Assembly: GCA_051294375.1 (NCBI GenBank)
Contig: CM119269.1
Location: 15,449,918 to 15,513,917 of the forward strand
DNA: 64,000 nucleotides
Source of the DNA: Paraspadella gotoi
Lineage: Eukaryota; Animalia; Chaetognatha
Direction of reading: 5' to 3'
Shown: in pieces, positions 15,575-39,635 of the stretch
Layout of the letters: each line of letters starts with the position of its first letter
Numbering within the stretch: position 1 is the stretch's first letter
Notes under the pieces: generated by a model
The model's input: only the letters and a program-made list of their open reading frames with translations
What the model was told of the DNA's origin: nothing
Databases searched by the model: none
Made by a program: the position numbers and the translations under genes

Positions 15575-16430
15575 TCACATCTCCCCGCATTGGGAGATGA
15601 CGACGGGAATCTTGGGTTTATTGTTTGGTCCCGTAGGAATGTTTTCGATCTTGCGAACGATGAGCAGCCCTTCCGTGACGCGGCCAAACACGACGTGTTT
15701 CCCGTCCAGATAATCACACTTGGAGCAAGTGATGAAAAATTGACATCCGTTAGTGTCTTTGCCGGAATTGGCCATCGACAAGAGGCCGGGACCCGAATGC
15801 TTCAATCGAAAGTTTTCGTCTGAAGTCGATATTAAAATTACAACTTATGTGGGGCGAGGATTCGTTTTTTAAAATTAGGACAGCCTTTTGAAGTTGTTTA
15901 ATAATTAAGTTTACTAAAATGATCGCTCAACAGATACAAACCTGCAAAGTTTGGACCGTATATGCTCATTGTCCCCGTTCCGTCCCCGTTGACAAAGTCC
16001 CCTCCCTGAATCATAAAATCCTTGATAACGCGATGGAACTGGGATCCTTTAAAACCCGTAGGCACGCCGTCACGCCGGAACTCGCCGGTACATAGTTGCC
16101 GAAAGTTTTCCGCGGACCTATGCCCGAGCCAAAAAGCTATGTAAACCATCAATTCGAACAAAAGCGTACGGAGAGTAAGGAGAGGATATCAACTAGCCGA
16201 CTCTAGGAAAAGCTGCGCGAGCAACCTCGATATTTTTCTGACTAAACTTTTTTTAACCTTTCCATAATTTTATATTATGCTGACTATGGTTTCCGCTTTT
16301 TTTCGCGGTGAATTCACCTCGGGACGACGTCAGCAAACAGTTCCATCTTCATCCTGCCAATTTCCGTATTCCCGACAGTGATGTCGAAAAAAACGACTGG
16401 ATTGTTCGGATTCGTAACCTTATCGGCCAT
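15575..16430 (-). CDS. PPIH: Peptidyl-prolyl isomerase H (cyclophilin H, U4/U6 snRNP), 3 exons
   Basis: [73 protein letters not shown] and the PPIH-type C-terminus [20 protein letters not shown]. Confidence 0.93.
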
Positions 16431-16907
16431 GTCTGTTTTTATGAGCGAAAAAGTCGCTCGGGAACTAACGATTGATTTGAAAGGAGACTATTTTGAAAAC
16501 AGCTTTGATAATGTCACGACATGATTACGATGGTCGATCCAAAGTTTTACAATATGTTGCTTATTAATATAAATAAATTAAGTAAAGAAGCTTCTTTCGT
16601 TTGAATTTGGGACATGGAGACAAGTTTCTATTTAAAAGTTTTTCTTTCTCAAAAGGGGTCTTCCGGTAAAAAGTAATAGTAAAGCCGAAAATTGCTCGGC
16701 TTTCGACTAAACATATGAGCAACAAAAACCACAATTTTTTAAAGAATTGTTCAAAAAATTCCTCAGGGAGGAACAAGCTGGTAAGGTTAAATTCATAAAA
16801 ACTAATCACCCTAATCTTGATAAAAATCTACGACGCCCCAAAAGGTGATGAATCGAGTGAGGATTGGACGAAGCAACCCCGAGCATCTCTGTCTTTGGCA
16901 ACCTTTT

Positions 16908-19900
16908 TTACTTCATCTTGGCTCGGAGAGAGGCGGGCATCTCCGGGGGCGGGGGACGGGGCAGGCGGAAAATGACCTTGACAGTGTCGTAAATAAACCA
17001 CTGTAGCGCTGTGAGCGTGCCGATCATAATTATCCTCGGGAAGAGACCAGCCCATAATCCGGCCATTCCCAGCTCCTTGGCCGCGCTAACGGCGGACCCG
17101 CCTGTAGTGAAAAACATATTATACTGAGCTCTCCAAATTTCAGAATAATTATTTCAAAGAGAGAATGGGTGAAGGGTTGTTACCAGGCATATTGTTTAGT
17201 TTCGAGACGACAGTGTCAGCAGGATGAGAGACTACGGCGCAGAAGACACCGGCGATGTATCCAGCGACGAAGGTGACTCCCAGCTGTTCAGCTTTGTTAC
17301 ACTGATCACGAGGCTTCGGTACCACGTATTTGTACAAATTTTCTGACAATTAAGCAATAAGAAAAATTTAACAATTCGTAGACAAATTTTGAAAAAAATC
17401 AATGTCAACTTACCGACTGTTTTTTCAAAGCAGGCGAACTTCATCATGGTGTAGGGAATCTGCCGCATCCACAGCGGAGTAAGTCCTTTATAGAAGCCCC
17501 ACAGGCCTTCCGTGTTGTACAGCAAGGGCACAGCCGCGCGGAAAGTTTTAGGGAAACCCTCCTTTGTTTGGATGCCTGAATGAGAAGTAAACTTAAGGCA
17601 ATATTAAAAAAAATTTCGAATGATTATTTTTTAGCTCTTCCTTCCGACGGGGCTCGGAAGGACGACTGACCGACTTTGATGGCTTCGAAGGGTGCGAGAC
17701 CGATGTCGGCGAAGAACTCGGCCGAGGCGGAGGCGATCAAATAGAGACCCGTACGGTAGAGATAAGCGGCTTCCTCTCCCAGCAATCCCGCGTAGACAAT
17801 CTTGAAGAGTTCATAGAAGCCGAATTTGCCGAGTCCCTGGACTGAGTAGCCCATCAACGTCGGAGCCCATCCCAGCGTAAGAGCAGAGAGTCCACCCTCG
17901 GCGACCGTCACTCTAAAAGCCAAATAATATGGAAATCCTCAAATAACTAAGGTTATTGCATCAATGTAATTTCTCAGTCATTTTTTTCCCTTCAACTCCA
18001 ACTATTCGATACTCTTTCCCAAATTATATAATAATATATATACTTATAAATACTCTCTGAATTCTATTTTCCTCTTCCTACACAATTGTCTCCTAATTAT
18101 TTATCCTCATCATTCTGTCATTCTATCCTTAATTTTTTAAGACGTTTTAAAGATATAAATATAGATATAAATTGCACTCGAGATTCCTTCATCTTCTCCC
18201 TTCCTGTTATTTTCTCCGCTGTCTCCAACTCTTCTTCCTCCTCCTCCTTCATTTTCGAATCCTAACTGGGTACCAGTGTTTCTAGGCAACCAGAAAAGCC
18301 AAGAACTAGTGGAAACAAACGGTGGTACAAAAATATCTTAAAAAAGCGGAATCAAAATGTCGGGTTTGCCCCGTGAAGTTCTCAGATGGCTTCAAAGCCT
18401 CGATCTTTCGTCTCCTGTAAAAAATCCGAAGTGGGACTTTTCAAACGGATTGCTCATAGCGGAAATATTTTCTTGGTATTTTCCGAGAGAAATCAGTATG
18501 CACAGTTTCCATACAGGATGTAGCCTTCAAACCAAAATGTCCAACTGGTACCTGCTGGATAAGTTCTTTCGCGATGAAAATATGGATATACCAAAAGACC
18601 TTATGCTCGGAACAATTCATAACAAGGGTTAATTTTTCGTTTTTGTATTATCAAAGATGACAAGGTACAAATTAATTAAATCTACTCCCCAATTACGTTC
18701 AGATGGGGCGGCGGCTCTTCTAATTCAGCACATCTTTGAACGATTGACAAGGCGCAATGTCTCCGCGTCTCTACTCCGGGAATCGACTTTCTCGGAACAC
18801 GCGCGGGATTTCACCTGCGCGGATCAAGCCTACCAAATGACGCTGCCGATGCACGCGCGAGCCACTGCATCCACGGCCGTGAAATCAAATTTTCAAATTA
18901 CCGAATCGATGGCACATCCAAATATCATCACCAATGCTCATCAGGCAAATAACTTTTAGTACGTTATACCCTAAAACATCTAATTACTCCTATATATTCT
19001 GTCACATTTCGCAGGCTCAAAAGATTATCAGCAACCATTTGGAGAACAGGCAACGAGAAAGATTAATTGACCCGCAAAGATTCGGAATAAGACCCACGGT
19101 GGGAGAATCCAGCCTCCGTTTAGCGGAAGCATCGATTCCACCGTCGAGAACGCGTTCAAACGCCCCCTCATCACCGCAACGTAGAGTGGAACTTCAAACT
19201 GAAGAACGACCACGTGAAATCCACGTGCGACAACACTTAAGTCTTCATTAATCGTGAAACAACCTTTGAAGATCGTGATGCCCAAATTAATAAATTGCTG
19301 CATATTATGTATTAAAATTACTAATTCGTTTTAAAACGTAAAGAAATACCGCCTAATTAATGTCGTCAAAAACTTTCGAATCCGTAAAGACTGTATATTA
19401 TGTATAATATACAATAAGGCGGAACAGGTTACAAACTAACAGAAGTCCGATATAAATATTGTTAATGTTTATTAAAGATCATTAAAAAAAAGAAGATTTA
19501 TCTTATAGTTGAACAGTTTAACAGATTCTTATCTAAAGCTTGAAAAGTTAGATGAAGCTTATTATTACAACTTTTTGAAATTTTAATGATTTATCTATGA
19601 AAATTAATAAAAACTATAAAATTTAATGAATGATGATGATGATAATAATTTTTTAAGTTTTTTTAGCATATTTATCATTAAAATTTTGAAATTTGTAGTA
19701 CTAACCTTTATCTAACTTTTTAATCTTTATCAGAATCCATTTTTAAAAATTTAAATTTTATGGTGGACTAAAATCCACCAATCAGAAGCTCAGGGACTGC
19801 TTGTATTGAACGGTTCTGTCACTAACACACAATCATTACTGTCAACTTCTAAAAAATATTTTTAAGCATATATTGTTATATATTAAAATGCTTCCATGCA

Positions 19901-20515
19901 TAAGGAAACGAATTTAATAAATCTAACATCATAAGTCAATTTGGTTGTAAAAGGACAAAAGACTTTTATTGCAGACTTTTTTATCTTGTAAAAATGTTAA
20001 ATTCTGGCCCGCCTTAATGTACAATTGTACATTACTGGTAAATAAACGTATCCAGAATTGAAAGCAAAATTTTATTGTAGTAACGTGCAGTGTAGTTAAG
20101 TAATATACTTTTTCATATCTCTTTTATTTCCCAAACCCAAACGTGGAGAATTGACTACTCACTTGAATCCGTTTACGATGCCTTTGTATTTGGCCGGATC
20201 GACCTGGATCCGGCATTTGACGAGATCGAGCGGCACGATGGCAGTGTGCGTGATGCCGCAAGACAAGATCCCTCCGAACCCGCAAAGGAGGTAGTACTTC
20301 ATCGATCCAATTTCACAGGATGGGGTATCATCGGCGGCTGAAAGAAAAACAAATGACAACCCGAAGTGAAAATGGTTGACCAACTAACGGAAATCGCTGT
20401 TTAAAAACTCACCCGCCGAAATCGTTCTCGTTTCGTCGTTGCTTTTGCATTTTGCGACGGTGAATGGAGACCCAAATGGGCTGTTCAACGCAATTTTTGC
20501 TAAATTCTCATACAT
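16908..20515 (-). CDS. SLC25A3: Mitochondrial phosphate carrier (multi-exon; long intron 17913-20162)
   Basis: [83 protein letters not shown] and [13 protein letters not shown]. Confidence 0.96.
18278..18290 (+). promoter_or_regulatory. RFX X-box-like motif upstream of the nested SPATA4-like gene
   Basis: GTTTCTAGGCAAC, 66 nt upstream of the ATG at 18357, resembles the X-box consensus GTNRCC(N0-3)RGYAAC. Confidence 0.6.
18357..19251 (+). CDS. SPATA4: SPATA4-like CH-domain (SPEF1/CH_2 family) protein nested antisense in the SLC25A3 intron (3 exons)
   Basis: [51 protein letters not shown], later [18 protein letters not shown]. Introns are ~18628-18702 (GT-AG) and 18945-19014 (GC-AG). Confidence 0.85.
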
Positions 20516-20947
20516 CTATGGAAAAAAAAATAGTAATATGAATATTATTCTTTCTTAGCTCTCAACAGGCTTCAACTTACCTTATTCTTCGGGGTGGGTT
20601 TTGGATGTTCAGCAGAGATTCTTAAACCTAAGATTTAATTACCTGAAGGGCAAAATAACCAAACAATTAAGTGAAATTTACTTTCGATAAAATCAAATTT
20701 ACAAAAATTCGCTGGTCAAGTGCGTATTTTTAACCAAACAGGACTCAAGAAATTTAGAAAGCCCTTCGAAAAAAATAACATTCCCTTCGCTTTGATTCGA
20801 AACTGGGATTTTTTTCCGATTTGAATTGAATGGGTTTATTTTTTTTCGTTTTGTCTTTCTCTAACTCGAGGGCGCATAGGCTGAAATCGGACAAGGAATC
20901 AAAGAAGAATCTCGTTCGCATTTCCTTGGACGACGCAGGCGAGAACA

Positions 20948-21527
<580 letters not shown>

Positions 21528-21665
21528 GATGATGATTTTTTTCTAAGGTTCGCACTGACCAGCAACTTGAAGTACTGAATCGTTTCTACCCTTACTAAAA
21601 AAAAATAATAAATTAGAAATTTATGGCGTAACAACAGAATAACGAATTAAAAAGAAAAGGAATCG

Positions 21666-24226
21666 TTAAAATTTTGGTAAGCACTCCAGCAATATGTCTC
21701 TCAGTTTTTCTCTCATCGTGTCTTGTCCCTCGCATATGATATGTGTCGATTCTTCCTCGATCGTGATAAGAGTGTCCGAATCGATTTCGACAATGGCTCC
21801 GCCTCCTGGACTCTCCTCCAGCTTGGGATTTTTAAAGCCCTGCTGCCTCAAAAGAGCGACAAAGGCCGTCAGATCGAGAGAGCCGTAAAATTGCTTCGAA
21901 GGTGGCCTCCTCGTTCTAGTCCTCGATTTCGTTTCTTCTTCTTCTTTAGCGCCGGTAGAAGACTTGCGTTTTCGACTAACACCGTCCGTCGACGAAGATG
22001 CGGATGTCGTCCCTCCAACCTCCACGGCCTCTAAATTGCCGACGGACAAATGATCGGCGGAATGTAACGTCGCTCGGTTGTCCTTGACAATCACTTGGCC
22101 AAAGACGGTGGCCGCCAAAACGCCCGCTTTTACTTCGACGGGGGCGAGCGCTCCCGCCAAATCGGGGTTCAGTTCGATCCTATCGAACGTCTTTTCCACG
22201 TCGACTTTGACGACCTGTCCCCGTCGGTAGGGAAGCGGGGCAAAGTCGCTGTTGACGCAGAGGTCGCTGCGGTGAGGGGGAAACTGTGGTGGGCGAGTAT
22301 ATTGGTCGGCGACGACGACGCGTTTTGGGCGAAGGTCGGGCACGAGTTTGTTGGCCTGAGCGAAGGAGAGCGAGGTGTCTATGGGAGTGAAATAGGCCTT
22401 AATAGCCAAGGGTTGGAACGGAGCCAACGCTTCCAGGTGAGGAAAGTCAGGCTCGGTGAAGATGATCGTGTTTCGAGAATCCTTGCCCCACAGGTGAAGG
22501 AAATGAACGGCGTCCCCGAATCGAAGCGATGGGTGTCCCGCGAAGACGACGCACGGGGTCTTCAGCTGACGCGAAAACTCTGGATCGTAGACGTCGGCGA
22601 AATGGCGAAGCCGCTCGAGGCGGACGAGGTCGCCGTGGACGAAAGGGAAGTCAGGAAGGTAGACGCGACTTTGTTTACCGTGAGACAACCATTCGGCAAA
22701 GATGTTTGAAAAACCTAAAGGGGCAGAGACAAGCGGTGAATATAACAAGAAGAAGAGTGAGCTAGAAAATTAAAGTAAAAACGCTTTCTGACCGAGGCTT
22801 TGTTTGGCGACGGGCGAGATGAAGTAAAGCGGAACGTGCGCCAATTGCGAAGATTCTAAATGCGTCGAAAGGCATTCGAACAGATCGTAAGTGACCCCAG
22901 AGGGAAAACAAGGAACCAGAACGTTCCCGCCATTGCGTAAAGTGATGGCCGTATTAACGCAAAATTCGCCTGAGTTAAACAAGCGCGGGTTAAAATTAAT
23001 TTTATAGATATCGAAATATAATTAACATATATCCATCACGTATTTAACTTTTAACCATTATAGTTTAACAAAAAATGTAGTAAAATAAGTAATCTTGCAA
23101 TTATCATTAATCACCAATCATGGCGTCGGGATTTTGCGTAGGCCACTGCGTTAGACCAGACAAGATGAGAGCGTCGCCGTCTCTTAAGGCGTTTTGGTCC
23201 ATAGGACGTGGGTGCGTCGTTAAGGTCGATGATGACGATAGATAAACTATTTTTTCCCGAGAACCAGTTAGAACCCAATTGCATGATCCTGCCATAAAGA
23301 TAAAACTGCATATTACAGGCAAATCACAGATAAACTCCGACTTACCAAGACAAAATCCCGAGGAAGTTGGCATAACCGTAAGAGTTCCAAAGATGTCCCT
23401 CTTTTCCGAGTAACCGATTAGTTTAACTTTGGCGAGGGACGATTCCATCTCGTGGCGCGAATAAAGCAGCGACCAACTGGAAAGATTTCCCCCGACGGCT
23501 TCGCGCAATCCGGCCGGGAGTGATTTGGTGAATTGAGGGTCTTTCCACTGGGTCGTTGTGGATTCGCTGGGACAACGATCGATCCAATGGATCATTTCCT
23601 CCATGAACAACCTCCCCATGGTCAAAGTTGGTTCCGTCATAAAAATTTCGCCTTAAAAAGTAAAGCTCAAGGATTGATGAGACGAACAATGTCAAGTCAA
23701 AAATCCCCGTTACTTTTCAAATTTGAAGCGCCGCACCTTTAAAATTTGTACGTTCGGTAATGAATGGAAGCGCCAGCATATGATGATAATTTGAGATGAG
23801 GATCGCGTCAATTTCTCCCAAGTCGATCATCGCCATTTCCGGTTTCGAAAATTCCGGCGGAGAATCGATAAAGTAACGACCATTCAATTCCTGTTGAAAG
23901 CGTACGTATCATCAACGATAACAACAACAACGATCAACAGCTTACGCGCAACGATTATTATTATAGTAATAATTTATTCGTAATCCATGACGAAAAAGAG
24001 ATGTCCTCACCTTAATGCACTTAGAAGCGTCGTGTGGAAACAATCGCTCGTCCTTGGCTGCGAATGAGGGGAGTTTAACGAACTTTTTGAGTGGAGTCGT
24101 CGAGAGGGGGAGGAAATGGAGGACTGAGTTCATTTCGAGTCCCGCGTCGAGCATCAGCATAGTAGATTTAAAGCGGACCACGAGACACGGGCGGTTCGGG
24201 TGACCAGAGAGGCAATAAACGCGCAT
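21666..24226 (-). CDS. INTS9: Integrator complex subunit 9 (multi-exon)
   Basis: [79 protein letters not shown] and [13 protein letters not shown]. Confidence 0.95.
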
Positions 24227-24489
24227 TGTTAACACTCACTGATGCTCTTTTTCTATTCAAATGAATACCGTTGAAATTACTACCATGTAACCATGTAACA
24301 AAAAGCTAAAATGAGAGCACCATAACATCAGAGGAATAAGTTAAGGCGAAACATTATTTTGGAAATATTGTAATAAATTATAACAAAACAACAAGATTTA
24401 AACAAATGAGAAAAGAGACAGTCAAGACGAATTTGGGTCATTTTTTCTTCTTTTTCGGAGGGTATCCGCTGTAACATCCCATTGAGACT

Positions 24490-26001
24490 TTAAAAGTCTA
24501 ACGATTTCTCCGAAGGGTTTTTTGGTTGACCAGGCTCATTATCACAGGAGCAACTCTTTCCGCTACTGCAACCACCACTAGAGTTTTTTAAGGCGCCTTC
24601 TAACGATTTAGCTGACAGACTGTAGGTCTTTCGAGTTTTGTTGTTGGTGCCCACGGCGAGTTTGGGGAGACCCTTGTTAAGGCCTTCAAGGAGAACGCAA
24701 GCTTTACAAAGTTCTTGGCTGCTAATGTATCCGCAACGCGAGCATGTTCCCTAAAAATTACACAAAAACATTGTTTTTAATTTCTAGTTGAAATTCGGGT
24801 CAGAGAAAAAAAAATTTTCTCCTTAATCATTACGACAAGTTATTGTTGATATTGTTGTGCATGGAGCATTAAAATACTGCTCAACGTCCAAGATAGACAA
24901 AATATTAACACGGACCTGAACCGGCATCTTGGTTCCTTCCCTAACGTCAAGAGTTTCTCCTGCATGTATGATGTCGATGATGACTCGAGGCCGAATCGAC
25001 TCCAAGTCTTTGAGAAAAGCGCGAGCGTGGCCGCGATAGGCGTTTGGACTGTAGATGCACTCCGTCGAAAAGTAGTCCAACTTTTTGAAATAGGCGTACA
25101 TCACGATCTCTTTCTCGTAGGTGTACTTGAACGGTTTACAACGCGGAAGCGCACCTGCCGTCGAATTATTATAATATATTAAAATCCCAACAAAACTCGA
25201 ACGGATTAAAGTTTTTTTCCCTCCCCGTTTAAAAAAAAAGACCTTCGGAACCGGTGACGATGGAGGTGCAACGACGAAGTCTAGCGATGTCCCCGCGAAG
25301 GACGTTCATTAAAACAGTTTCAGCAATGTCGTCTGCATTGTGGCCGGTTACTATTTTGTTAGCTCCAACCTGGGAGTAAGGAGCAGTTTAACATTCGATT
25401 TATTATTATTTATTTATTATTAATTTGTACGTGAAAACTTAAAAGTGAAAGGATCGTACCAACAAGGCTCCTCGATCAAGCGCCTGCCGCCTGAAAACCC
25501 CGCAAAATGTGCAGTTATTCTTCCGGCCGATTTGTTCCACGATAGCGTCCATGCTCCATCCGTACAATTCGTTGTACGATACGATCTTGAGCGGGAGTTG
25601 ATACTGCTGCTGATTCCGTTTCACAGTTTCCAAAGAGTCGTCTCGGTAACCTTGGATGCCCTCGTCCACGGACAATAGGAAGAGCGACAATCCGTAGTCG
25701 TATCGTTCGTTGAGCACTTTCATGACATGGGCGAGGACGGTCGAGTCTTTACCCCCTGAAGCTCCTATGGCCACTCGATCGCCACTATTTAAATTATGGA
25801 GTTTTAACACATAAAACCATACATAATAGAAATACCAAATCACTGAAAAACCTACCGGTTGAATAATTTAGCCGTTACAATGGTATCATTGACTTCCGCT
25901 TCAAAACAGTAGAAGAAACAATCTTTGCACAACGCGTCTCCAGTTTTTGGTCTCTTCAAAATTGCATTTTGTCCGCATTTACGTCCGCAAGGAACCGGCA
26001 T
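24490..26001 (-). CDS. CTU1: Cytoplasmic tRNA 2-thiolation protein 1 (5 exons)
   Basis: N-terminal CxxC/RPKTG/CKDCF, PP-loop [52 protein letters not shown] and C-terminal [16 protein letters not shown]. Confidence 0.96.
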
Positions 26002-26076
26002 TTTCGCGTTTAAAGAAACTAGAGATAAATACAGTAAGAAAATTTAGTAGTAACAAAATCGCTTGACTGCTAATAA

Positions 26077-27531
26077 TCACAATCGCGCTGAAGTTTTCAA
26101 AAGAGTTTCGAAACTGGGAGTGGCGATTATTTTATGGCTCAAGCGTCCGTAAGTATACATGTCCCCTCCTCCGCTGACGTCGTCCAGTTTGACGCCGACG
26201 AATTCTTGCAGAAATCCAGCGGGAGTGCCCAGGCTAAGATCCAACGAGTGTCCGTTGGGAAAAACCAACTCGCATCGTCCACTGGCGCGGATCACGACTT
26301 TCCCGATTTGTCCCTTGGGCAACCTCCCGAGCTTACAGGCGTTGGGGTCGTCGCGGGTCGCGAAATCGATCTCGTCTTCGCCGTCATCAGCTCGAAGCTC
26401 CGAAACCACTTCTTCGTCGGTTTTGACGGCAGCAGCTGGAACCGCCGCAGCGGCGGAAGCATCCGGGCGAATATCAAAAGGCAAAGAGTCCGGGAGCTGA
26501 ATAAAAATAGAGCGGGGATCGGCGTTGACTTCATCAAAGACGCCAGCGCAGGAAAACGGACGTTTTCGATCGTCTGACGCCGTTGAAGCGGCGTGGGCGT
26601 GAGTTCGAGAGTCTAAGAGTGGAAGGGTTACGGGCGGAATAGCCGACTCTAGCTCCGCTTTTATGCCAGTTACAAAGTCATCCTTGAAGAGGCGATCTAA
26701 AAGCGCCTGAGCTTTGGCCGGATCCGTGGTCGTGGCTGTTAAAGATCAGAAATTGATGTTGATGATTAAATTAATTCATTTCTTTCTTTGAGTGGTATTA
26801 ACCTTTGGATGAGAAAACTCTGGCCGAGTCAGCAGCGTCACCACCGCCGCCGCCGCCATAAGAGGGTGCTCGCCCATCGCTTTTCCTTAGGTCACTCGTT
26901 AATCCCTTTGAAAAAACAGACGTTTTTGACTTAACATCTTAAATAGAGGTAAAAACAATTTTTAAAAATCTAATAAAATCACATGGATTAAGATAACATC
27001 CTAAAACTGCATGACTATTTCTTACTTCCAACACAGAACTAGTTTGAATGTGATTCGGGTTGACATATCCGGGACCGCCGCGACCTCGGCCTCTACCACG
27101 GCCCCTTCCACGCCCACGATCCGTTCTTGGCTCGAACCTCTTCTTTGGCTTCGCATCTTCAACCGAGGACGAAGTAGCTTCTTTTCTTAAAAAGGTTAAT
27201 CACATCTTCGTTTTAGAAACGTCGATGATAGTCATGACATTTGAAGTTTAAAAGTTTGAAACTTTTAGAACCGAGTCCGAGGGATTTAATTTTCATTTAC
27301 TGACCTTAACTTGGCCTGTAGATTAGGGGTGAAGACCTTCTTGGCTACTGACGGAGATGGTCCCGGAGATGGGTTCGCGGCGGAACCGTTGGAAGAGATT
27401 ACTGCGCCAGTTTCGCTCAAACTTATTTTGACATCCGGTCCACCGGACAATCGCTTTAATCGCGACACGGGATTTGTTATCCCTTCTTTTGGTTTGAGAA
27501 TCGGAGTTGAAACACGTCGATTATTCGACAT
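26077..27531 (-). CDS. POLR3D: RNA polymerase III subunit RPC4 (4 exons)
   Basis: KKVFTPNL, an RGRGRG stretch, FIQLPDSLP and the RPC4 domain GQIGKVVIRASGRCELVF...LDLSLGTPAGFLQE...GRLSHKIIATPSFETLL*. Confidence 0.85.
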
Positions 27532-27638
27532 TATGAGAAACTACAACTATTCAATAAAATTAAAAGAATTAGTTTTCAATATTAAACCGGCACACAAATA
27601 AAACAGTAAACTGAAACAAAAACCTTCAAGAGCTGTAC

Positions 27639-27664
27639 TGACCTTTAAGTACATTTTAAGGTCA
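27639..27664. promoter_or_regulatory. Everted pair of extended nuclear-receptor half-sites (TNAAGGTCA, ERR/NR5A-type)
   Basis: TGACCTTTA-agtacatt-TTAAGGTCA. Both strands carry a match to TNAAGGTCA, ~110 nt upstream of the POLR3D ATG. Confidence 0.35.
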
Positions 27665-27738
27665 TAGCCAAGACAATTTTACATCATTTTTAACATTCTT
27701 TTGAAAAAAATATTACAGCATCAGCGGCAAGTGATATT

Positions 27739-28032
27739 AAAAAAGTACGTCGAATCACGGGACTTAGTTGACCCGTTCGCACGTTGGTCCTTCCCGGCGT
27801 CTACTGGGTGACTTTGGCCGAAACTTCGCAGATTTTCCGCAACGCGGCAGCATCAGTCATTCCTCGCTTGCCCGCTGCCGAACAAGAGACAGGCCGCCGC
27901 AGCAGCGACGGATTATCGGCGCAGCTGCCGAGTGAACCGCCAATGGCTGACCTGCGGCGGCGGAGCGGCGACTGAAGCAGCGACGTTTCTCCGCTTCAGA
28001 GCGAGAGCACCTGTCTGCACCTGGCGCCTGAC
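27739..28032 (-). ncRNA. Candidate ~290-nt structured RNA at the head of the gene cluster
   Basis: GC-rich island with nested helices AGACAGG/CCTGTCT, GCCGCCGCAG/CTGCGGCGGC, CTGAAGCGG/CTGCTTCAG, CGGCAGC/GCTGCCG and TTGCGGA/TCTGCGA. A 3' terminal hairpin is followed by T6 on the minus strand. There is no credible ORF. Confidence 0.5.
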
Positions 28033-28430
28033 GAAGAAAACAAATATCTTATTCGGGCTCCGAAGAGAAAGCACGTAGGGAGGAAGTCTATATTTCCTCT
28101 CTCTCATGGTCGAAGTCATTGAGTATCGCGAGACTGAAAGCAACAATTATATAAATAAATTGATTCGTATCTTCGTTAAAGATTGCTAATGAACTTTATT
28201 TATACAAGATTAACAACGACAAGAATGTACTCGTACAACAAAAAGTAACTTATAAACATATTACCTATGTATATTATTAATAATTTTCGTTTAGTGCTAG
28301 GATTTAATATATAGAATTAGTTTTGTTAAAAAAAATAATTGTCAAATTTTTAATTTTTCTAGTTCTACTATATTTTAAAATGTCATATTGTGATTATGAA
28401 AAAAATTGAAACTCAAATAATGCAGAAAAT

Positions 28431-30067
28431 ATGAACTACAACTCCTCGGGTTATTTTAATGGGTTTTCCGACGTGGAATACGTCAACAACTACTACGGAG
28501 AATACAACAGTAACGGAAACTATGAGGTGAAATATTTTCGGAAATTATTTTTTGAATAGAAACTTTCAGATTAGTTACGTACCGCTTGATTATACAGACA
28601 AGCATTAAGCAAGACTTAATTTTTTATGCTTCATCAATCGGCCTGCAAAGATTTGTTTTCTTTACACGTACGATGTGACGAGACGAACTTATTTCAGGAG
28701 ATCGATTTGGAAAACGAGGAAACTTCGAATATGGTGATGGAGGTGGAGGAAGGGCTGGACGTCGAGGAGGAGGCCTGTTACAATTCATGGTAAATTCAAT
28801 TACTATAATTGATTTTTACCCCATATTTTTCTAAATAAATGATTAATTGCTAAAAAATTGAAAAAAAAGGTAAAAAATGGAATATTTTAAACCAAAACGT
28901 TATTTGACTGAAGGGCCCACCCGCCGCATCTAAACGAAGGACGAGATGCTGAAAACGCGAACGATTGGCCGAGCGAAGAAGTCAGGGACTACGGATACCG
29001 AGGATTCTCCAACTGGACGGGGGATATCGGTTTTTACGGTTGGTTGTCTACTTCGAGTGGTTTTCATTTCACTTTTCTTTTCTTTATCCTTCTTTCCTGA
29101 ACCTTCATCTTGTAATTCATACTAACTCTTACGGCCTACCCTTTTGCGTTCTTGACAGGTGGTAGAGCTCCCGAAGGCCGCCCATATGCCGACTTCGAAG
29201 AAGGGGCGTCCCCGTCAAGTGTCTTCGGCAACGCCATCCCTAGGGGTGGTCGTGGAAAACGACGCAGAGCTCGAAATGTCAGCGACGAACAACGCCATCC
29301 TTGTCGGGTTTGCGGGAAGATGCTCAGCACTAAGTGGTTAGTAGATTTCGCGAAATTTTAATTTCGGTTTTCTTATTCTCATCAATTCAACACTCGCATT
29401 GATTTTTTATCAATTTAGTTTATATTTGGTTGGAAAGTTATTTAATTATGTATCATACTTGTGAAGTTAAGTGATCACTTTAAAAAGTAATGACATAACT
29501 TAAAATTTAATGAAGCATAATTCGTGAAATATTTATTGAGTTATTTTAATCAATATTTGCCTGACTAGTAAGTTATCTGTGATTGATTGTGGTGCAATAT
29601 GCATATGTTTTATACTTGTATAGTCACATAACCCTGCAGAATTACGATCACTTTGACCACAGAGTAAATAAGGCGTATTTTGTGTGATATTTAGTCGGTA
29701 GTTGAAACTTTGCAGATAAATTATCAACCATTTGTTACACGTATATTTCATACTTAATAATATACATAATTCATAGTTATATTATTGCTTGGAAATATAT
29801 GTAGAAAGAAAGTTACTGCGGCGAAACACATTGGATGGACCATTATTGTTTAAAAAAAAAACTGATCTATTTCTCATTATTTTCATCTCGGTCAGGTACG
29901 CGAGAGAGCATGAACGAAGCGTCCACGGGACTGGCGATAGCTACCAGTGCAACATTTGCGGTGAGCGACTCAAGCTCGCCATCTATGCCGTGAAGCACGT
30001 GCAAAAAGAACATCCTGCCTGCACTGAAAAGCCCTTCGGCCAGTATTACAAAGTAATAATTGATTAG
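28431..30067 (+). CDS. C2H2 zinc-finger protein (two fingers, acidic N-terminus), divergent from the cluster
   Basis: Spliced exons give HPCRVCGKMLSTKWYAREHERSVH and YQCNICGERLKLAIYAVKHVQKEH. Upstream exons at 28431-28526, 28698-28789 and 28914-29038 join in frame. The 5' structure is less certain. Confidence 0.7.
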
Positions 30068-30271
30068 TAAATGACAAATAAATTAGGTGAAAATTATAAA
30101 AATTCCTTCCACTCGTCTTTTGTCATTTATTTCTTTTTCTTTTCTTTCTCTGCCTGTTTCCTTTTTTTCTTTCTTATTTTCCTTATTTCTTTCTTTCTTT
30201 CCTTATTAAATTCTTTCTTTCCTTTCTTTTTTTCTTTATGTCTCTTTTCTTTTTTTTGTATTTGTTCTTGT

Positions 30272-30307
<36 letters not shown>

Positions 30308-30964
30308 TCCTATTTTCCTCTTCTCTACTAAAGTGCAACCGATATCGAAATGTCAGTAAGACTCCTTCAGTTTTCTTGTATGCCATCTTTTTCACTGGTT
30401 TTTGCTTCCTCCATGCATTCTTGTTAATTGTTTATTAATTTCTCTTTCTCAGTTTCTGTCATTCAGGCCTTTCTTACTAACAGAATTATGTAATCATTGA
30501 ATTTGAATTTTACTTAGTTTATGTCTTTTCAACAGCATAAATTATTTTTAACCATTCAGAATTCGCTCATTCTAATTGTCTTATCTTTAGTTGGTTTCCG
30601 ACCCAATTGATAGCGTATTTACATGCAACTACTGTGGGACGGAAACTATGCAAATGTGTGAGATACAAAGGCATCTCAAGGATGTACATCATGTCGAAAA
30701 AAGGTACTTACTATGTAGTATACTGTATATCCATTTTATTCAGGGACATAGACATTAGAAAATGAAAAGAGAAGGAAAGAAAGAACGAGGGAAAGAAAGA
30801 AAGAAAGAAAAAATGAAAGAAAAAAAGAAAGAAAGAAAGAAAGAAAGAAAGAAGAAAGAAAGAAAGCAAAAAATAAGGAAAGAAAGATGAAAAAAGTTCC
30901 AACCAGCGAGCATTTTAATCAGAGGAATCCAAGGAAAGGTAGGCCAAATTGAAAGAGCGCGCGC

Positions 30965-31034
<70 letters not shown>

Positions 31035-31057
31035 CTGCACTAGATTCAGGTTTTCGG

Positions 31058-32617
31058 ATGGAATTCGGTTTCTGGGTGGAAATCTCAAAGTCGCAGATGA
31101 GGTCCGTGACGTCAGTCGGCAATATTTCCTCGATAAAATTAATGCACGACAGCAAACAAAAAATAGAATAAATTATAATGTATATGATTAATTATTTAGT
31201 GTAGTTGACTTGAGTCAACTACATTAGCTAAGATAAGTCTTAAAGCAGAGAAGGAGAGAGGAGGAGAGGAAGAGAATGAGAGGGGGAGGGAGAGAGAGAA
31301 GAAAGAGGAGAGAGAGTGAGGAGAGGATGAGAGGGAGGAGAGAGAGTAGAGAGAGATGAGAGAAGGGGGAGAGAGAGATTACTTACAAATCAATTTTGGA
31401 ATTTCGGAATTAATGACTCAATATGCATAACGAGACAGTGAATGGCACCAAAAGTCAGAAGTCTTAACGAGCGATCGAAATCTCATCGTTCACCCAAATC
31501 GCCGGAACACTAAAAAATTAAAAATATTTTGAAACCCGACTTTTTCAGATTCAACCGTCATTACAATAAGAAAGAAAAAGGAGGAAGTAAGGAATACCGC
31601 GGCTGGAGTGGACGCCGCGTTTCGCGGGGGCGCGGCCGGGGTCGAGGTCGAGGCCGCGGCTCCAAAGGCGCGGGGTTCTACGGTGGGATGGCGCCGGATC
31701 CTTTGGCCGATCTGTTGGCGGAGGCGGAGGCGGCGATGGAGTCGAAGCCGAAGCCTGAGCCGGCTCGACTCGTCTTCACCGATTCGGACGTTTTTGACGC
31801 CGGATTCGACGCCGACGCCAAAGATGGCGTCGGAGGCGCCGCAACGGAAGCGTCCAATCCTTTCCTGGACCACCCTTCGCGTCGTCATCATCCATCCTCG
31901 CTGGACCACTCCGCTCACCCTTTCGGCGTGACGTTCGATAATCGCGGCCTCTGCCCTCCTTCGTCGGGATCTTTCGACGATTCGCCTCTTTCTTCGGCCT
32001 CGTCAAATGCGGCTCCAGCGCCGGAGGTCGTACCGGCAGGGCCGCCGACGCCCTACGGACTTTTCGAAACCATCCACCCTTCCCTCAGCGATCGAATGGC
32101 GCCCGGCGGACCGAACAACGCCACCATCTCGGACGACCGATCGCAGCAGCCTCAGCACGCCGGCCCTAACCTCCGGCCACCGGAGCCGCGCCTGCCACTA
32201 CAGCCTCAACATCAACCAACTCCGCCGCTGAGTTTGGACCAATTGCCGACGGGCTGCAACCCCGAGGCTGCTCGGCTCACCGAGGTCATCCCCACCTTCG
32301 GGACGGATCCGCCCTGCTGCGTGTTTGGCGAAGGTCCCGCCGTTCCGTCGCTCCCACCGTCCCAGTCGATCGATACCGTCGCATTTCCGCCAGCGAACGT
32401 TTCGTCGTCGACCTTGAGTCACGCCTCTTCGTCGTCGTCCTCGGCGTCTTCGTCGGCCTTCAGGATCGACGAAGACGACGACGCCGGCGATGAATTCATA
32501 CACAAACTGAGTCAGTTCGATACCGACTTTCCTTTCAACGGCGGCAGCGGCGGTGCCGGAGCCTCGCAGCAGGAGAACGACCTCAAGTCGTTCCTCGAAG
32601 TCTCTAATCAGTTCTGA
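31058..32617 (+). CDS. Unknown intrinsically disordered protein (RG repeat, Pro/Ser-rich, NPF motif)
   Basis: 1.07 kb GC-rich open exon after a TTTTTCAG acceptor (31548). A candidate first exon ATG 31058 (MEFGFWVEISKSQMR) joins in phase. No recognisable domain; the start is uncertain. Confidence 0.55.
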
Positions 32618-34472
32618 GAGCCTCGTTTTGATTTCGAATGTCTCAGCCGAAATTCTAGTCTCTCATCCTATTTGCCCGTCTTGACCGTTTCTATCTGTTT
32701 TCACGCTGTTCGTTCCCAATCTTCGCTACATTCGGTAATAAAGTATAAGTTACAAACAAATGTAATTTTTACGTATTGAATATTCTCGACTACGAATTTT
32801 ATAACCGCCTATTTAGAGAATCAGATATATATATTTTTTATTAGGGAGTTTAAAGAATTTCTTAACTCTCGAAAATATATGTTATTTAAAAGTAAACATA
32901 CAATTGACTAGTAAGCGTTTGATTCTAGTTTTTTATTTTTGATACATTTGCTAAACTTGGAGAGCTTCACTCTGATTTTTTTTAATGTTTTCAATATATT
33001 GCCTGATAGTAATTAAGAAAACGTTTATGATTGATACAACCAATATAAAAATTATCCATTATAGTATTTAGGTTACCGATTATTTGTTTCATTTGTTCTG
33101 CTGGTCCGTCCGTTATTAAGGGAAAACTTTTTTTTTAATATCTGTTTTTTGGACAGATTCCTTAAGAATTAAGTCCTGAACGTAAGCAGTAAGCAGAAAC
33201 GTAAGCAGTAACCGACTAAGTACGTATGTAGTTTTAAAGTCAGCTGCTTGTCCTATTTTATAATAGTGATTTTTTCCCATGTTTTTTTTTATATTTTGCT
33301 TCGTTGAGTTCAATTTTCATTGTTTTGTCCTAAATTTTACCAATTCAACTCCGAGGGTACATTTTTTTGTTTCTTCGTTTTTTCCCCACCACATTCCATC
33401 CAAATTTCCCAGATAAGAACTAAAAGATACTTAACACTTCGTAAGATTAAATGAAACATTTGAAAAACAAAATATATCTAGCTTATAGTTATACATAGCA
33501 TACTTTGGTTGTTGATAAATTTATTAATCATGACCATACCTCACTGAAATTTTTATTTTCGTTTTATTTTTCTGTTACAATGACTAAGTCTAGGAGATAT
33601 TGATTTACGCTCTTTAGCCATATCAATGAATGCGTTTGCGCACTGCTTTGTATTAATCACAACGGGATTTTCGAAATATATTATTAGAGCTTACTTTTAG
33701 TACTTTTTGGTCACTTTTTATAGCAATAAAGATTTATGAGGAGAATATCATAAATGTATATTTCAATTTTTTTTGAATAGCTTAATTTTAAATCTCAACA
33801 TGAGCATTATTTTTGGCTTTTTGTTGTTCTACTCTCTAGTCCTGTATTTTTTTTTGTAAATCTTTATTGTCGTGCGCAGTCATATTTCGTATTTTTAATT
33901 TTTTTTTTTACTTTGTATATTGCCATCTACGATTTCTGGTTTATAATTTATCTAAAACAAATTTCACCGAAACCCCATATCTTGTTTGTCCATAGGATGA
34001 AACGATTTGCGTGCAGCAAACTATTTACTTCCGCCAAAGTTGCTATTTTTGAAAAAAACAAATCTGTCGAACGTGATAGCATAACAAATAAAACATTTCT
34101 GAGTCATCATGTGCTTATGTCACCGGCCGAGCCCCTTGGGTTTTGTGTTTAAATTTTATTGTTTTTTTGTTTATTGTGCTCTCCCTTGATATTAATTTTA
34201 TTTTTGTTTATCAGTGCAGCACAAACTTTATTACTTCATGGAAGAGATTTTACACACACGATTACGTTTTAGAAAATATTCGTTTCTAAATTTTTTAAAT
34301 ATAATTTGTATTGTTCGGTATCGCAATGTTCGTTTTATTTTGTTTCGTTTATTTGAGAATATCTCGTAGATCATTTAACAATGTAGAACCCCAGTTAGCG
34401 AACTATTTTCGTCAGTCATATAATTATGAAAATCGAATACAAGAATAATGTTTTCTATTTATGACCTTTTGC

Positions 34473-34638
<166 letters not shown>

Positions 34639-34955
34639 TTTATTAGTAGAAAAAAAGGACACATTGAGTGATACGAAACAGCAAGAATAAAAATTTCGAA
34701 ACCCGCATTTTTTATTTTTGAATCTACACTCCCTGGTCAAACCCTTAAGTTTGAAGAAAACTAACGTCATTCATAAGAAATAAGTTTTGATTTTTGAACG
34801 TCGAAGCCAAAGGTAACAACATTAAGTGATTAACAACGAATCATCTGCTATTTTCTCTCTATCTTTCATCTTTCTTTCTTTCTTTCTTTCTTTTTTTTTT
34901 CTTTCTTTCTTTCTATCTATCTATCTTTCTTTATTTCTTTCTTTTTTCCTTTCTT

Positions 34956-34996
<41 letters not shown>

Positions 34997-35054
34997 CTCT
35001 CTCTCTCTTCTTTTTCTCTCTTTTATTCTCTAGCCCTATCAACTCCCTCCAGCC

Positions 35055-35492
35055 ATGACGGAACACCTCTCCGGCAGCGGGTCTTGGGATTTGGTCGTCC
35101 ACGTCGCCGACGTCTCCGCCGACCTACGGCTTCGCGTGCACGGCGACATGCACGTGGGCGGCCTTGTGCGGCTGGCGACCGAGTCGCTCGATCAGAGTCG
35201 CGACTGGTCCGGCCACGCACTCTTCTGGCCCTCGGAACGTCGGTGGTTGACAGCGACGCGTCGCACTATGGATCAGTGCGGGCTCCACGCAGAGGCGCGC
35301 CTCCTGCTCACGTCGATCGTCAAGTCGACTCGGGTGCTGCTGCCCGATCTTCGTCTAGTCGAGTGCCGCGTCGACTTCGCCGTGAGCGTCTTCACAGCGG
35401 TGGAGAATATCTGCGACCGGTTGGGAATACGGCACCCGGAGGAGCTTTCGTTGGCGAGGGCTCGAAGGCTCGAGTCTGGCGATCAAGTACGA

Positions 35493-35585
<93 letters not shown>

Positions 35586-35870
35586 TTAATCTGTCCTCCC
35601 CACCAGGTAAAGGTCGATTTAAAAATCGAGGAGACGCCAGACATCCAGGGAGCCCTGGCTTCCGACCCAGCCATGTCCCGCGCCGTCGCCTATCGCAGGG
35701 CCTTCGTGCCCCGCAACCCGATGCACCTGACAGAGCTCCATTCGGAGTGGCTCGACTCGGCCAAGTCGCTCCTCGAACAGGGCGTCGACGATTCCAACGT
35801 CATCCATTTGCGCTACAAGTTCCTCGTTTTTCACTTCTTGAAACCTTCCACGGGTAATTTTGCTCTGGGA

Positions 35871-35911
<41 letters not shown>

Positions 35912-37764
35912 CGAGTAATTTGTGAGCACGTGAGAGAGTATGATTATCGAGCACAAAATTATTTTACTCATATTGTTTGGTGGACAAAACCATAAAATAC
36001 AATATATTTATAGTATATCCTTTTTAAAAAAAAATTGATTCTAATTCTTCATAAAAAGTTAGTCCTAAAATATAAAACATGTTATAAAAAATTTTGAGAT
36101 CTTCAGCGTCAAAAACGAAAAAAAAAGAAGAAATTCTGCATTTTTTACTCTCTGTAGACTAGTAGTAGCAGAAACTAGTGCAGTAGAAACTATTATATGA
36201 AAAAACGTTTTAGTCATTTTTTGCAGCTTTAAGATTAAAATATAACATTTTATAAAATTTTCTTAGTTTTTTTCCGGCGAATCCGAAACTGTTCTTAAAA
36301 TTAAAACAATATAATTTATAAATTTTATGATATTATAACAATATTACGATAAAGAAATTTCATTTCATTACACACAAAGGCATCTAAAAACATTATTTAA
36401 TCGCTCTATCGTTTCATCGCTCCACCCAATTTAAAAAGTGCTACTCAGTGACCCAAAAGTGTTTTCTTTCTTCATAACATAAATACGTAAATTACTTTTT
36501 ACATCTTCATTCTAGATTCTATTCGCATAAACCAAATCTACCAACAAGCCAAGTGGAGCATTTTGACCGAAGAGACTCCGTGCGGCGACAACGAGGCTTT
36601 CCTCTTTGCGGCGCTGCAGGCCTGGATTGAAAGGAACGACGCAAGCGAAGTCAAAACTGGCGCCGCGGACGCAGCTCCCAACATCGCCGTCAAGCCCGTT
36701 TCCGAAGAAGACGACGATAAAGGGGATGAAAAGGAGGCTCCGTTCGAGCTGGAGTTGAGCAATTTCTTCAACTATCTTCGCCCGCGACGACTCGGCTTCA
36801 ATTCTCTCAAGAAAGGATTCTTCGTCCTCAAGGGACAGAGTCTACTTCTTTACGAGACGAAAGAGGCGTCGACGTCCTTGTCCCCGCCGCTGATAACGAT
36901 CCTCCTCACGGAGGCGCACGTGGTGCCCGTCTTCGTTGTCGCCGAAGACACGTACGCCGTACGCGTGTTCGCCGCTGCGGCGAGCGACGGCGGCGGCGAC
37001 GACGAACCGTTTTCCCTGCGCCTGGAGATCCAAATTCCTTCGTCAGCACAGTTCGCTCAATGGATGGCGGCTTTTCGCGTCGCCACCCGCAAATCCGCCT
37101 CTCACCGCCTCTACCGGCGCGAGATGGAAATCTTTAAAGCGTTTTTACGGATGCAGCAGCCCGTTGCCGACGCCCCCGCCGTAGCCGTCGAACCATGCGA
37201 GACGCTGTCAAGGCGTTTGGAGAAGAAGCTGCGGCGGAGTCGATTAACGGACCGTATCGTCGCTCTCTACCCCAACGTGGCAGGGCTAACGCCTATCAGA
37301 GCCAAGATGCATTACATCCGGTTTTGGGAGCGTCTGCCCGGGTGCGGCTCGGCACCCTTTGCCGCTCGTTTCACGGCGCCGCCGGGAAAAAAGGACGAGC
37401 TGCTTGGCGTCGCGTGGAACCGACTTTTCCGGACGGATTTGACCGGAAGGAAGATCTTGGGTGTCGTCCGCTTGGCGACGCTGACATCGTGGAGCGTCAA
37501 TTGGGAAACGAAGGTGAATTAGTCGACGTAAATTATTGAAATAAAATCAAATGTTAATTAATACTTTCAATTGACGATCGTGATTGACAGGAGTTTCAAC
37601 TCGACAGCGCCAGCGGTCGGATCAAATTCAAGTGTCTTTCCGCGGATCCTAAAATCGTTCACGAATTCATCGGCGGCTACATTTGTCTCTCTATGAGAAC
37701 AAAACAGCATCACGGGAAAATCGATGCTGAGCTTTTTCACAAACTCACCGGGGGACGCTCGTAG
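35055..37764 (+). CDS. FERMT: Divergent kindlin/fermitin family FERM-PH protein (4 exons)
   Basis: F0 ([43 protein letters not shown]), [38 protein letters not shown], a PH insert, WSVNWE and [16 protein letters not shown]...ELFHKLTGG. Confidence 0.9.
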
Positions 37765-38463
37765 TTTTTTTTTTTCGACGAATGCAATGGGTTAATCTTA
37801 CTACAAAAATGACGACGGGGTAAAAATGATTTCTATACCAAAAACGCTTATTGGAGAGAATATTCTTAGACATTTCTACGCTTATCAGTACATCAGTAAT
37901 TGCTGAATTTCTTTATCTGTGACTGGAACTAATTGCCTGCTTCAAGCGAAATGAAATCAAGAGCCCTGACTAACAACGAATTAAGACAAACCTTAATCAG
38001 ACTTTGAAGCCTTTTCTCATTAATTTTGTTTTCTAAGCTACATTTAAGAAAGCGGCAGAATCACAATTTAATCGCAACGAATTTGGATAAAGAAATCACA
38101 TTTAGGAAAAAGAGATCAGTTTTGCAATGAAAACACATTTGCCAGTCTTGACTTTGGGAGTTCATTTGGTTTTTGCTTTGTTTTTTTTTCCTCGTGGGAG
38201 TGAGGAATTGTTTCGAAGTTATCGAACGGGAAACAAGATTGTTGGGTAAAAAAATGGAAATATTTGGTGCTCATTATTCGCCGCCGCTGACGATTCTTTC
38301 CGATTTCGTCGTCGTCGTCGTCATTTTCTTATTGGCGGTAAAAGTAATTATTGCCGCGCAGTCGACATCGCTGGCGTTGTCGTCGTCAATTCATCAGTGA
38401 TCCTAAGAAGTGGGCGTCTATTGCTTGATTTTCGGTCGTCGTCGTCGTCGTCGTCGTCGTCGT

Positions 38464-38765
38464 NNNNNNNNNNNNNNNNNNNNNNNNNNNNNNNNNNNNN
38501 NNNNNNNNNNNNNNNNNNNNNNNNNNNNNNNNNNNNNNNNNNNNNNNNNNNNNNNNNNNNNNNNNNNNNNNNNNNNNNNNNNNNNNNNNNNNNNNNNNNN
38601 NNNNNNNNNNNNNNNNNNNNNNNNNNNNNNNNNNNNNNNNNNNNNNNNNNNNNNNNNNNNNNNNNNNNNNNNNNNNNNNNNNNNNNNNNNNNNNNNNNNN
38701 NNNNNNNNNNNNNNNNNNNNNNNNNNNNNNNNNNNNNNNNNNNNNNNNNNNNNNNNNNNNNNNNN
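38464..38765. other. Assembly gap (other N runs at 39322-39346, 59021-59255, 59793-59935)
   Basis: N runs in the sequence. Confidence 1.
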
Positions 38766-38806
38766 GGGGTTGATCCTTCTCCTCCTCCTTTACTCCCCAA
38801 ATCTCG

Positions 38807-38921
38807 TCACGAGTTGAAAATCTTGAATCCTCGATTGAAAAACTTGAAGTTTCCTCCTTTGGGTTTTTCGCTCTTTTCCACCTGAGTCACTTTGGCGAGG
38901 CCCTTTTGACTCCCGCCACTT
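38807..38921 (-). CDS. Terminal exon of the RASL12-like gene (intact copy)
   Basis: cag|A AGT GGC... reads SGGSQKGLAKVTQVEKSEKPKGGNFKFFNRGFKIFNS*. GFKIF matches the RASL12 C-terminus and the phase matches the donor at 48625. Confidence 0.7.
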
Positions 38922-39097: not shown

Positions 39098-39565
39098 CAT
39101 CGCAGAAGTATCAAGCCACCAAAATCAAATCGGATCAGAGGCTCGGGCGATCTCCGCAGAAATGGAATCGCCGAATCCTGATTGGTCAAAGACGGAACCG
39201 GAATCGACCAAACAGCTTGCAGAATCATTGGATCTGTCAAACTTACCTTTACCACCGATCCTATTCTCTAGTTATAAATAGACTTAATTTGTCTTAGTTT
39301 CAGTAGCATTGAACAAGACTCNNNNNNNNNNNNNNNNNNNNNNNNNTAATTGATTAGTAAATGACAAATAAATTAGGTGAAAATTATAAAAATTCCTTCC
39401 ACTCGTCTTTTGTCATTTATTTCTTTTCTTTTCTTTCTCTGCCTGTTTCCTTTTTTTCTTTCTTATTTTCCTTATTTCTTTCTTTCTTTCCTTATTAAAT
39501 TCTTTCTTTCCTTTCTTTTTTTCTTTATGTCTCTTTTCTTTTTTTTGTATTTGTTCTTTCTTTCT

Positions 39566-39635
<70 letters not shown>

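What the first reader, a model, noticed from the sequence alone, without database searches (positions are those of the whole stretch)
27739..28032. Unidentified, highly structured RNA heading the operon on the same strand
Seen: a ~290-nt GC-rich island in AT-rich DNA. It folds into a multibranch domain (AGACAGG/CCTGTCT enclosing CTGAAGCGG/CTGCTTCAG and a 10-bp GCCGCCGCAG/CTGCGGCGGC arm), further hairpins and a terminal ACGTGCGAACGGG/CCCGTGATTCGACGT stem followed by ACTTTTTT. G-U pairs favour the minus strand. I could not find complete diagnostic motifs of SRP, 7SK, RNase P/MRP, U3 or a telomerase template. Inferred: it is either a novel or divergent Pol III ncRNA (hairpin plus T-run, next to a Pol III subunit gene) or a structured outron / first cistron released when POLR3D is trans-spliced.
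Basis: partly seen in the sequence, partly recalled or inferred. Interest (0 to 1): 0.75.

Follow-up and report, generated by a model that had tools for sequence, protein, structure and literature searches.

The report
GC-rich island between divergent arrow-worm genes
A 390-base GC-rich, non-coding stretch sits between two back-to-back genes of an arrow worm (chaetognath); it is likely their shared promoter region rather than an RNA gene, though an unknown RNA on the opposite strand to the one proposed is not excluded.

Summary
The island is real but larger than reported: 27748-28136, 389 nt, 58% GC, non-coding, with flanks of 27% and 21% GC. The host is a chaetognath: POLR3D mRNA carries the 3' end of the published chaetognath SL2 leader at 27546. 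The island fills the middle of the 815-nt gap between POLR3D (head of a long minus-strand gene run) and a divergent, likely zinc-finger gene.

The named helices exist, but 'highly structured' is not supported. With objective edges the plus strand folds better (z -2.8), but coding controls reach -2.9. T6 runs are common here. There is no Rfam hit; 7SK, RNase P/MRP, U17 and TTAGGG-telomerase hallmarks were not met. No homologue was found, so covariation is untested.

Best reading (0.45): shared GC-rich bidirectional promoter flanked by two AU-rich outrons. Rivals: unclassified plus-strand ncRNA ending in an ACA-like box (0.27), mobile-element or exon remnant (0.15), minus-strand Pol III RNA (0.13).

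The parts
27748..28136 (.). GC-rich non-coding island (389 nt, 58% GC, CpG o/e 1.26); likely core of the shared promoter region, or an unclassified RNA
   Evidence: stops in all six frames and negative codon scores
27893..27961 (.). Central long hairpin arm built on GCC/GGC runs; folds about equally on both strands
   Evidence: z -3.7 plus, -3.6 minus, 1 of 500 shuffles each, chosen post hoc
27739..27786 (-).
   Evidence: hairpin z -2.36, 10 of 500 shuffles; T6 runs common
27802..28125 (+). Predicted long-range helix 27802-27819 with 28108-28125 (17 bp, 4 G-U, mean P 0.99) closing most of the island on the plus strand
   Evidence: longest run 14 bp reached by 8 of 300 shuffles, but duplex energy no better than null
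28137..28159 (+). H-box-like hexamer (28137), ACA+3 nt (28143-28148) and AATAAA (28154): possible 3' end of a plus-strand RNA; such short motifs are frequent in this AT-rich edge
   Evidence: weak ceN81 match E 2.7-5.9, not significant
27548..27747 (-). AT-rich flank (27% GC) ending in the trans-splice acceptor; likely POLR3D outron
26077..27546 (-). POLR3D/RPC4 gene, SL2-type leader joined at 27546, ATG at 27531; first gene of the minus-strand run
   Evidence: Pfam RNA_pol_Rpc4 E 1.7e-20; joints and loose end; SL table
28137..28362 (+). AT-rich flank (21% GC) ending in a pyrimidine tract and AG; likely outron of the plus-strand gene
   Evidence: spliced contig begins at 28365
28363..30067 (+). 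Divergent spliced gene, likely C2H2 zinc finger (only its 5' part traced)
   Evidence: three GT..AG joints; zf-H2C2_2 E 0.0011, below Pfam cut-off

Best explanation
The GC-rich non-coding island at 27748-28136 lies between two back-to-back chaetognath genes and is likely their shared, bidirectional Pol II promoter region, with hairpins that likely arise from its GCC/GGC-rich composition rather than from a stable RNA product. Shown: the divergent layout, SL trans-splicing of POLR3D at 27546, and AT-rich flanks of 200 and 226 nt that each end in a splice acceptor. Inferred: Pol II starts within or at the edges of the island in both directions; the AU-rich flanks (plus part of the island) are outrons removed when the leader is added; one direction feeds the POLR3D-headed operon and the other the zinc-finger gene.
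For: Both transcription units need a promoter inside the 815-nt gap 27548-28362 (layout; inference). In the 8.5-30 kb block 22 islands reach the 55% GC threshold. This one has the smallest open-frame fraction (0.73; the other 21 have 0.87-1.00) and sits at the head-to-head junction. The layout is symmetric: AT-rich flank plus acceptor on each side. GC-rich stretches also occur in the apparently non-coding parts of the window, 51-56% GC, some with CCAAT or CACGT-type words (motif names recalled). The island has one CCAAT and two RCGTG words. Folding lies within the range of controls: 2 of 24 strand values from 12 GC-rich segments of equal length reach z -2.5 or lower, minimum -2.87. Rfam gave 0 hits at gathering score in 64 kb and only sub-threshold hits, all far below gathering score, in three focused scans.
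Against: No start-site, chromatin or capped-RNA data were available. The island differs from six other GC-rich stretches taken as non-coding: it is longer (389 vs 151-280 nt), lower in CpG o/e than five of them (1.26 vs 1.46-1.79; the sixth 0.88), and better folding (plus z -2.79, 0 of 100; block shuffle 2 of 100; their 12 z values run from -2.16 to +1.65). I chose those comparison stretches by eye. Its edges are sharp, as RNA genes in AT-rich DNA often are (general knowledge). The upstream region of the nested CH-domain gene reaches only 41% GC. Trans-splicing of the plus-strand gene is inferred from a contig start 2 nt after an acceptor; no leader was seen there.
Confidence: 0.45

Rival explanations
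1. An unclassified structured ncRNA of about 400 nt is transcribed by Pol II from the plus strand (about 27745-28148), divergently from POLR3D. It would be closed by a G-U-rich long-range helix and protected at its 3' end by an H/ACA-type box, like animal telomerase RNA or a large sno/scaRNA.
For: Plus-strand z -2.79 with objectively set edges (0 of 100; block shuffle 2 of 100). A 17-bp helix with 4 G-U at P 0.99; the 14-bp run is reached by 8 of 300 shuffles. ACA+3 nt then AATAAA at the GC/AT boundary. Protostome telomerase RNAs are about 400 nt with an H/ACA end (PMC8480181), and fast-evolving classes escape homology search (PMC2770079).
Against: End-to-end duplex energy is ordinary (314, 392 and 319 of 1000 local shuffles as good; real -31.0 vs null mean -32.1). 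There is no 6-nt permutation of the TTAGGG template, nor the tested TTAGG 6-mers, on either strand in 27550-28362. No canonical two-hairpin H/ACA fold. H-box-like hexamers occur 25 times on plus in 560 nt. Coding controls reach the same z.
Confidence: 0.27
2. The island is a decayed remnant of a mobile element (MITE-like, imperfect terminal inverted repeats) or of a coding exon.
For: The two ends are partly complementary. Coding DNA in this window is GC-rich like the island, and one plus frame stays open for 88 codons.
Against: No second copy in the 64-kb window (best blastn E 0.12). The differences between the arms are mostly G-U compatible on plus (by inspection). Codon scores are negative in all six frames. 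The open frame has no protein relative (0 of 2 candidates). The whole genome was not available.
Confidence: 0.15
3. A minus-strand Pol III RNA (7SK-like layout: 5' end paired near the 3' end, terminal hairpin, U6 tail) starts near 28120-28135 behind a TATA-like word and ends at 27739, as the first reader proposed but longer.
For: Terminal hairpin z -2.36 plus T6. TATA-like word at 28153 on minus. The minus ensemble is the better defined (diversity 64.9 vs 88.7).
Against: No GATC and no A/B boxes. The end-pairing helix carries A-C mismatches on this strand. T6 runs and TATA-like words are common in these flanks.
Confidence: 0.13

Closest known systems
Head of a chaetognath operon resolved by SL trans-splicing (Spadella cephaloptera, Paraspadella gotoi; PMC2481426, PMC12460157)
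   Same: SL2-type leader on the first gene; gaps of 75-312 nt between the four gene pairs measured; housekeeping gene content.
   Different: The passages seen describe no promoter composition or outrons (0 hits for 'promoter' and 'outron' in PMC12460157), so a GC-rich bidirectional core is inferred here.
Protostome telomerase RNA (PMC8480181)
   Same: Size near 400 nt; long stem enclosing further stems; ACA+3 nt at the plus-strand edge.
   Different: No TTAGGG template, no recognisable template-pseudoknot core, no P7/P8 hairpin with CAB loop before the first ACA.
7SK snRNA (PMC10083321)
   Same: On the minus strand: end-to-end pairing, terminal stem-loop and U-run.
   Different: No GAUC motif at all; no Rfam 7SK hit.
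Eukaryotic RNase P / MRP RNA (PMC4919922, PMC1796607)
   Same: One exact match to a recalled CR-I consensus (minus 27838) and one to the published MRP CR-IV 7-mer (minus 27815).
   Different: No P4 partner downstream, only about 95 nt to the T-run, MRP P4 consensus missed by 2-4 letters, no Rfam hit.

Membership tests
Any Rfam 15 family (incl. SRP, U3, RNase P/MRP, 7SK, snRNAs, vertebrate TR) | cmscan score at gathering threshold | tested here: not met
   0 hits in 64 kb; best focused hits E 0.94-8.3, all far below gathering score
7SK | GAUC motifs in the 5' hairpin (PMC10083321 passage) | tested here: not met
   no GATC in 27700-28260
7SK | 3' stem-loop followed by U-run | tested here: inconclusive
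   present on minus, but T6 runs are common
Telomerase RNA | Template of 1.5 or more telomere repeats | tested here: not met
   none for TTAGGG, TTAGG, TTAGGC, TGTGGG, TTTAGGG, TTGGGG; only short TCAGG-type matches at +27638 and +27947. The chaetognath repeat is only weakly known: TTAGGG/TTAGG in ESTs (PMC2678813)
Telomerase RNA | Template-pseudoknot core with P2b/P3 triple helix | tested here: inconclusive
   inspected by eye from the helix list; no convincing arrangement; no pseudoknot predictor run
Box H/ACA RNA | Two hairpins, H box, ACA 3 nt from the end, pocket 14-16 nt from the box (spacing recalled) | tested here: inconclusive
   ACA+3 at 28143-28148 and H-like hexamers exist, but folds give no canonical pocket
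U17/snR30 | m1 and m2 motifs flanking the 3'-hairpin loop (PMC9176245; motif letters recalled) | tested here: not met
   neither core found exactly
RNase P RNA | CR-I paired with CR-V in P4, with an S domain between | tested here: not met
   CR-I-like word at minus 27838 (consensus recalled; 2 exact matches in 64 kb) has no P4 partner in 27826-27560
RNase MRP RNA | 5'P4 and 3'P4 consensus (PMC1796607) | tested here: not met
   best matches have 2-3 and 3-4 mismatches; the CR-IV 7-mer occurs 167 times in the window
Pol III type 2 gene (tRNA, vault, SINE) | Internal A and B boxes (consensus recalled) | tested here: not met
   none; ARAGORN 0 genes
Protein-coding exon | Open frame with coding bias or a homologue | tested here: not met
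Bidirectional promoter with outrons | Divergent genes with trans-splice acceptors facing outward | tested here: inconclusive
   shown for POLR3D; inferred for the plus gene
Bidirectional promoter with outrons | Open chromatin and two start sites inside the island | not testable with these tools
   no raw reads, CAGE or ATAC data available
Functional structured RNA (any) | Covariation across orthologues | not testable with these tools
   no homologue retrieved

The most novel reading that the evidence does not exclude
The island is a chaetognath-specific or highly diverged 400-nt plus-strand RNA with a G-U-rich closing helix and an H/ACA-type end, possibly the unidentified chaetognath telomerase RNA with a non-TTAGGG template or a new large scaRNA-like class, sharing a promoter with a long housekeeping operon.
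Probability: 0.15. Interest if true: 0.65.

Novelty: new member of a known kind. Interest (0 to 1): 0.27.

Why it matters
If it is a promoter, it is ordinary, though it gives a testable model for how chaetognath operon heads are built (GC core, two AU-rich outrons). If it is an RNA, it would be a mid-size structured RNA in a phylum for which my searches listed no such annotation: the top 15 of 316 papers contain no mention of chaetognaths, and one search listed 15 of 17 papers with none on a chaetognath telomerase RNA by title or abstract start. It would then be a seed for finding telomerase, 7SK or MRP RNAs in Gnathifera.

Tried and rejected
No whole genome is held, so genome-wide copy number is untested. 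The run search for 27600-28200 gave 'no RNA holder listed' (1 run added by species label); this is no evidence either way. That run's contigs do not cover 27568-28304; contigs show presence only, so this is not used for or against.

Metagenome scan with the POLR3D exon: 318 pattern matches, 0 confirmed. Metagenome DNA pattern: 6 loci; viral pattern: 1 locus. All 7 match only the anchors (blastn E 0.05 or worse), lie in loci with long open frames and have no Rfam hit. Phage blastn: one 34-nt match, E 0.5. Earlier findings of the scan: nothing in 3 look-ups.

TCAGG as a gnathiferan telomere repeat (recalled) was not confirmed by the listing. Resemblances to RNase P CR-IV, U3 boxes, U11, SRP and hammerhead cores, recalled from memory, were dropped because order or partner motifs fail. 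A second ACA at about 28201 behind an AT-rich hairpin (-10.2 kcal/mol) is possible but uninformative. The bacterial promoter/terminator scan does not apply to an animal. A fixed 200-nt grid gave z -0.28 (plus) and -2.12 (minus) at 27800; the grid minimum (-4.97, minus 27400-27599) lies outside the island, at a GC/AT boundary.

Full report
Observation. The fold is not exceptional there: minus z -1.40 (17 of 200 shuffles as good), plus z +0.16. A maximal-GC-segment rule sets the island at 27748-28136, 389 nt, 58% GC.

Host and context. The INTS9 exon is 73% identical to one unnamed protein and 40-48% to the other 119 listed proteins, so the host is a long-branched animal. Contigs of run X1 show spliced joints in POLR3D, a PP-loop (CTU1-like) gene and INTS9, and a 15-letter loose end at 27546. 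Its reverse complement equals the 3' end of the chaetognath SL2 leader in Table 3 of PMC2481426 (passages seen). The host is therefore a chaetognath and POLR3D is trans-spliced. Pfam confirms RPC4, a PP-loop protein, IntS9, a mitochondrial carrier, a cyclophilin, L12 and DeoC on the minus strand (11 of 14 queries had a family). One X1 contig spans the CTU1-like gene and INTS9, which does not by itself show one transcript. Chaetognaths trans-splice nearly half their genes and keep 18% in operons (PMC12460157, passages). On the other side a spliced plus-strand gene begins: its contig starts at 28365, 2 nt after a pyrimidine tract and AG at 28361-28362, with no leader seen. The layout is POLR3D acceptor, 200 nt at 27% GC, island, 226 nt at 21% GC, acceptor-like site, likely zinc-finger gene.

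Not coding, not repeated locally. All six frames have stops and negative codon scores under a small model trained on five exons. That model scored the true frame of three of four held-out exons positive (0.13-0.51) and one negative or near zero, so it is only a rough guide. The longest open frame has no relative. There is no second copy in the window; the genome was not available.

Structure, both strands. With objective edges, plus gives z -2.79 (0 of 100; block shuffle 2 of 100) and minus -1.60 (6 of 100; 14 of 100). The plus strand has a 17-bp long-range helix with 4 G-U pairs at mean P 0.99, and its 14-bp run is matched by 8 of 300 shuffles. Against this, the duplex energy is no better than null. 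Twelve GC-rich control segments of the same length, eleven of them in long open frames, give 24 z values from -2.87 to +0.82, two at -2.5 or lower, with 22 shuffles each. The central arm is significant on both strands alike (1 of 500 each) and rests on GCC/GGC runs. The T6 run carries little weight: there are 40 such minus-strand runs in 21 kb, and 7 of 21 GC islands have one at an edge.

Known families. Rfam gives no hit at gathering score in the window and only chance-level hits in three focused scans. 7SK: no GATC (hallmark per PMC10083321 passages). Telomerase RNA: protostome TRs are about 400 nt with a template-pseudoknot core and an H/ACA end (PMC8480181, parts 1-3 of 7 read). The island has ACA+3 at its plus edge but no template for TTAGGG or five other repeats, only short TCAGG-type matches; ESTs suggest TTAGGG/TTAGG in chaetognaths (PMC2678813 passages). 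RNase P: a word matching a recalled CR-I consensus at minus 27838 has no P4 partner (CR roles per PMC4919922 and PMC10966300 passages). MRP: the published P4 consensus (PMC1796607 passage) is missed by 2-4 letters. U17: motif cores (letters recalled; roles per PMC9176245 and PMC12095548 passages) are absent. 7SK, MRP and TR are known to evade homology search in invertebrates (PMC2770079 passages), so these negatives lower but do not remove the RNA reading. No supplements were read; the alignments in the supplements of PMC8480181 and the ATAC tables of PMC12460157 could bear on the result.

Homologues. None were found in metagenome, viral or phage collections, so covariation is untested.

Weighing. 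The two divergent units need a promoter inside an 815-nt gap. Of 22 GC islands in the compact 8.5-30 kb block this one has the smallest open-frame fraction and lies at that junction; both flanks look like AU-rich outrons ending in acceptors (inference). GC-rich stretches also occur in apparently non-coding parts of the window. Divergent promoters far outnumber unannotated 400-nt RNAs in a genome (general reasoning), and the folding signal is within control range. I therefore favour a shared promoter region (0.45). The island is, however, longer, lower in CpG excess and better folding than most of the other non-coding GC stretches, which keeps a plus-strand RNA alive (0.27).

Verdict. A real compositional feature with marginal structure, unresolved strand and no family assignment; interest 0.27. 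Stranded total RNA-seq and an alignment with other chaetognath genomes would decide it.

Noticed in passing
window 10750-27546, minus strand: A run of about ten closely spaced housekeeping genes: RPC4, CTU1-like, INTS9, mitochondrial carrier, cyclophilin, L12 and DeoC by Pfam; ATP synthase c and a DRG-like GTPase by inspection only. A candidate operon as long as or longer than the nine-gene maximum reported for P. gotoi.
   Followed up: partly
window 21594: A second leader-like loose end (38 letters) on the ATP synthase c-like gene; it ends like chaetognath leaders, but the part shown is not in the published Spadella/Flaccisagitta table. It may be one of the other P. gotoi-type leaders, whose sequences I did not see.
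   Followed up: partly
window 18278-19200, plus strand: A CH-domain (CH_2) gene nested antisense in an intron of the mitochondrial carrier gene, with an RFX X-box-like word (consensus recalled) about 70 nt upstream.
   Followed up: no
window 30100-38900 and 39400-48100: A tandem duplication of about 9.2 kb (FERM/kindlin-like gene included) whose second copy has broken frames; may be an assembly artefact.
   Followed up: no
window 27639-27664: A small hairpin in the AT-rich POLR3D outron region; the 200-nt window 27400-27599 has the lowest grid z (-4.97, minus), likely inflated by the GC/AT boundary.
   Followed up: no
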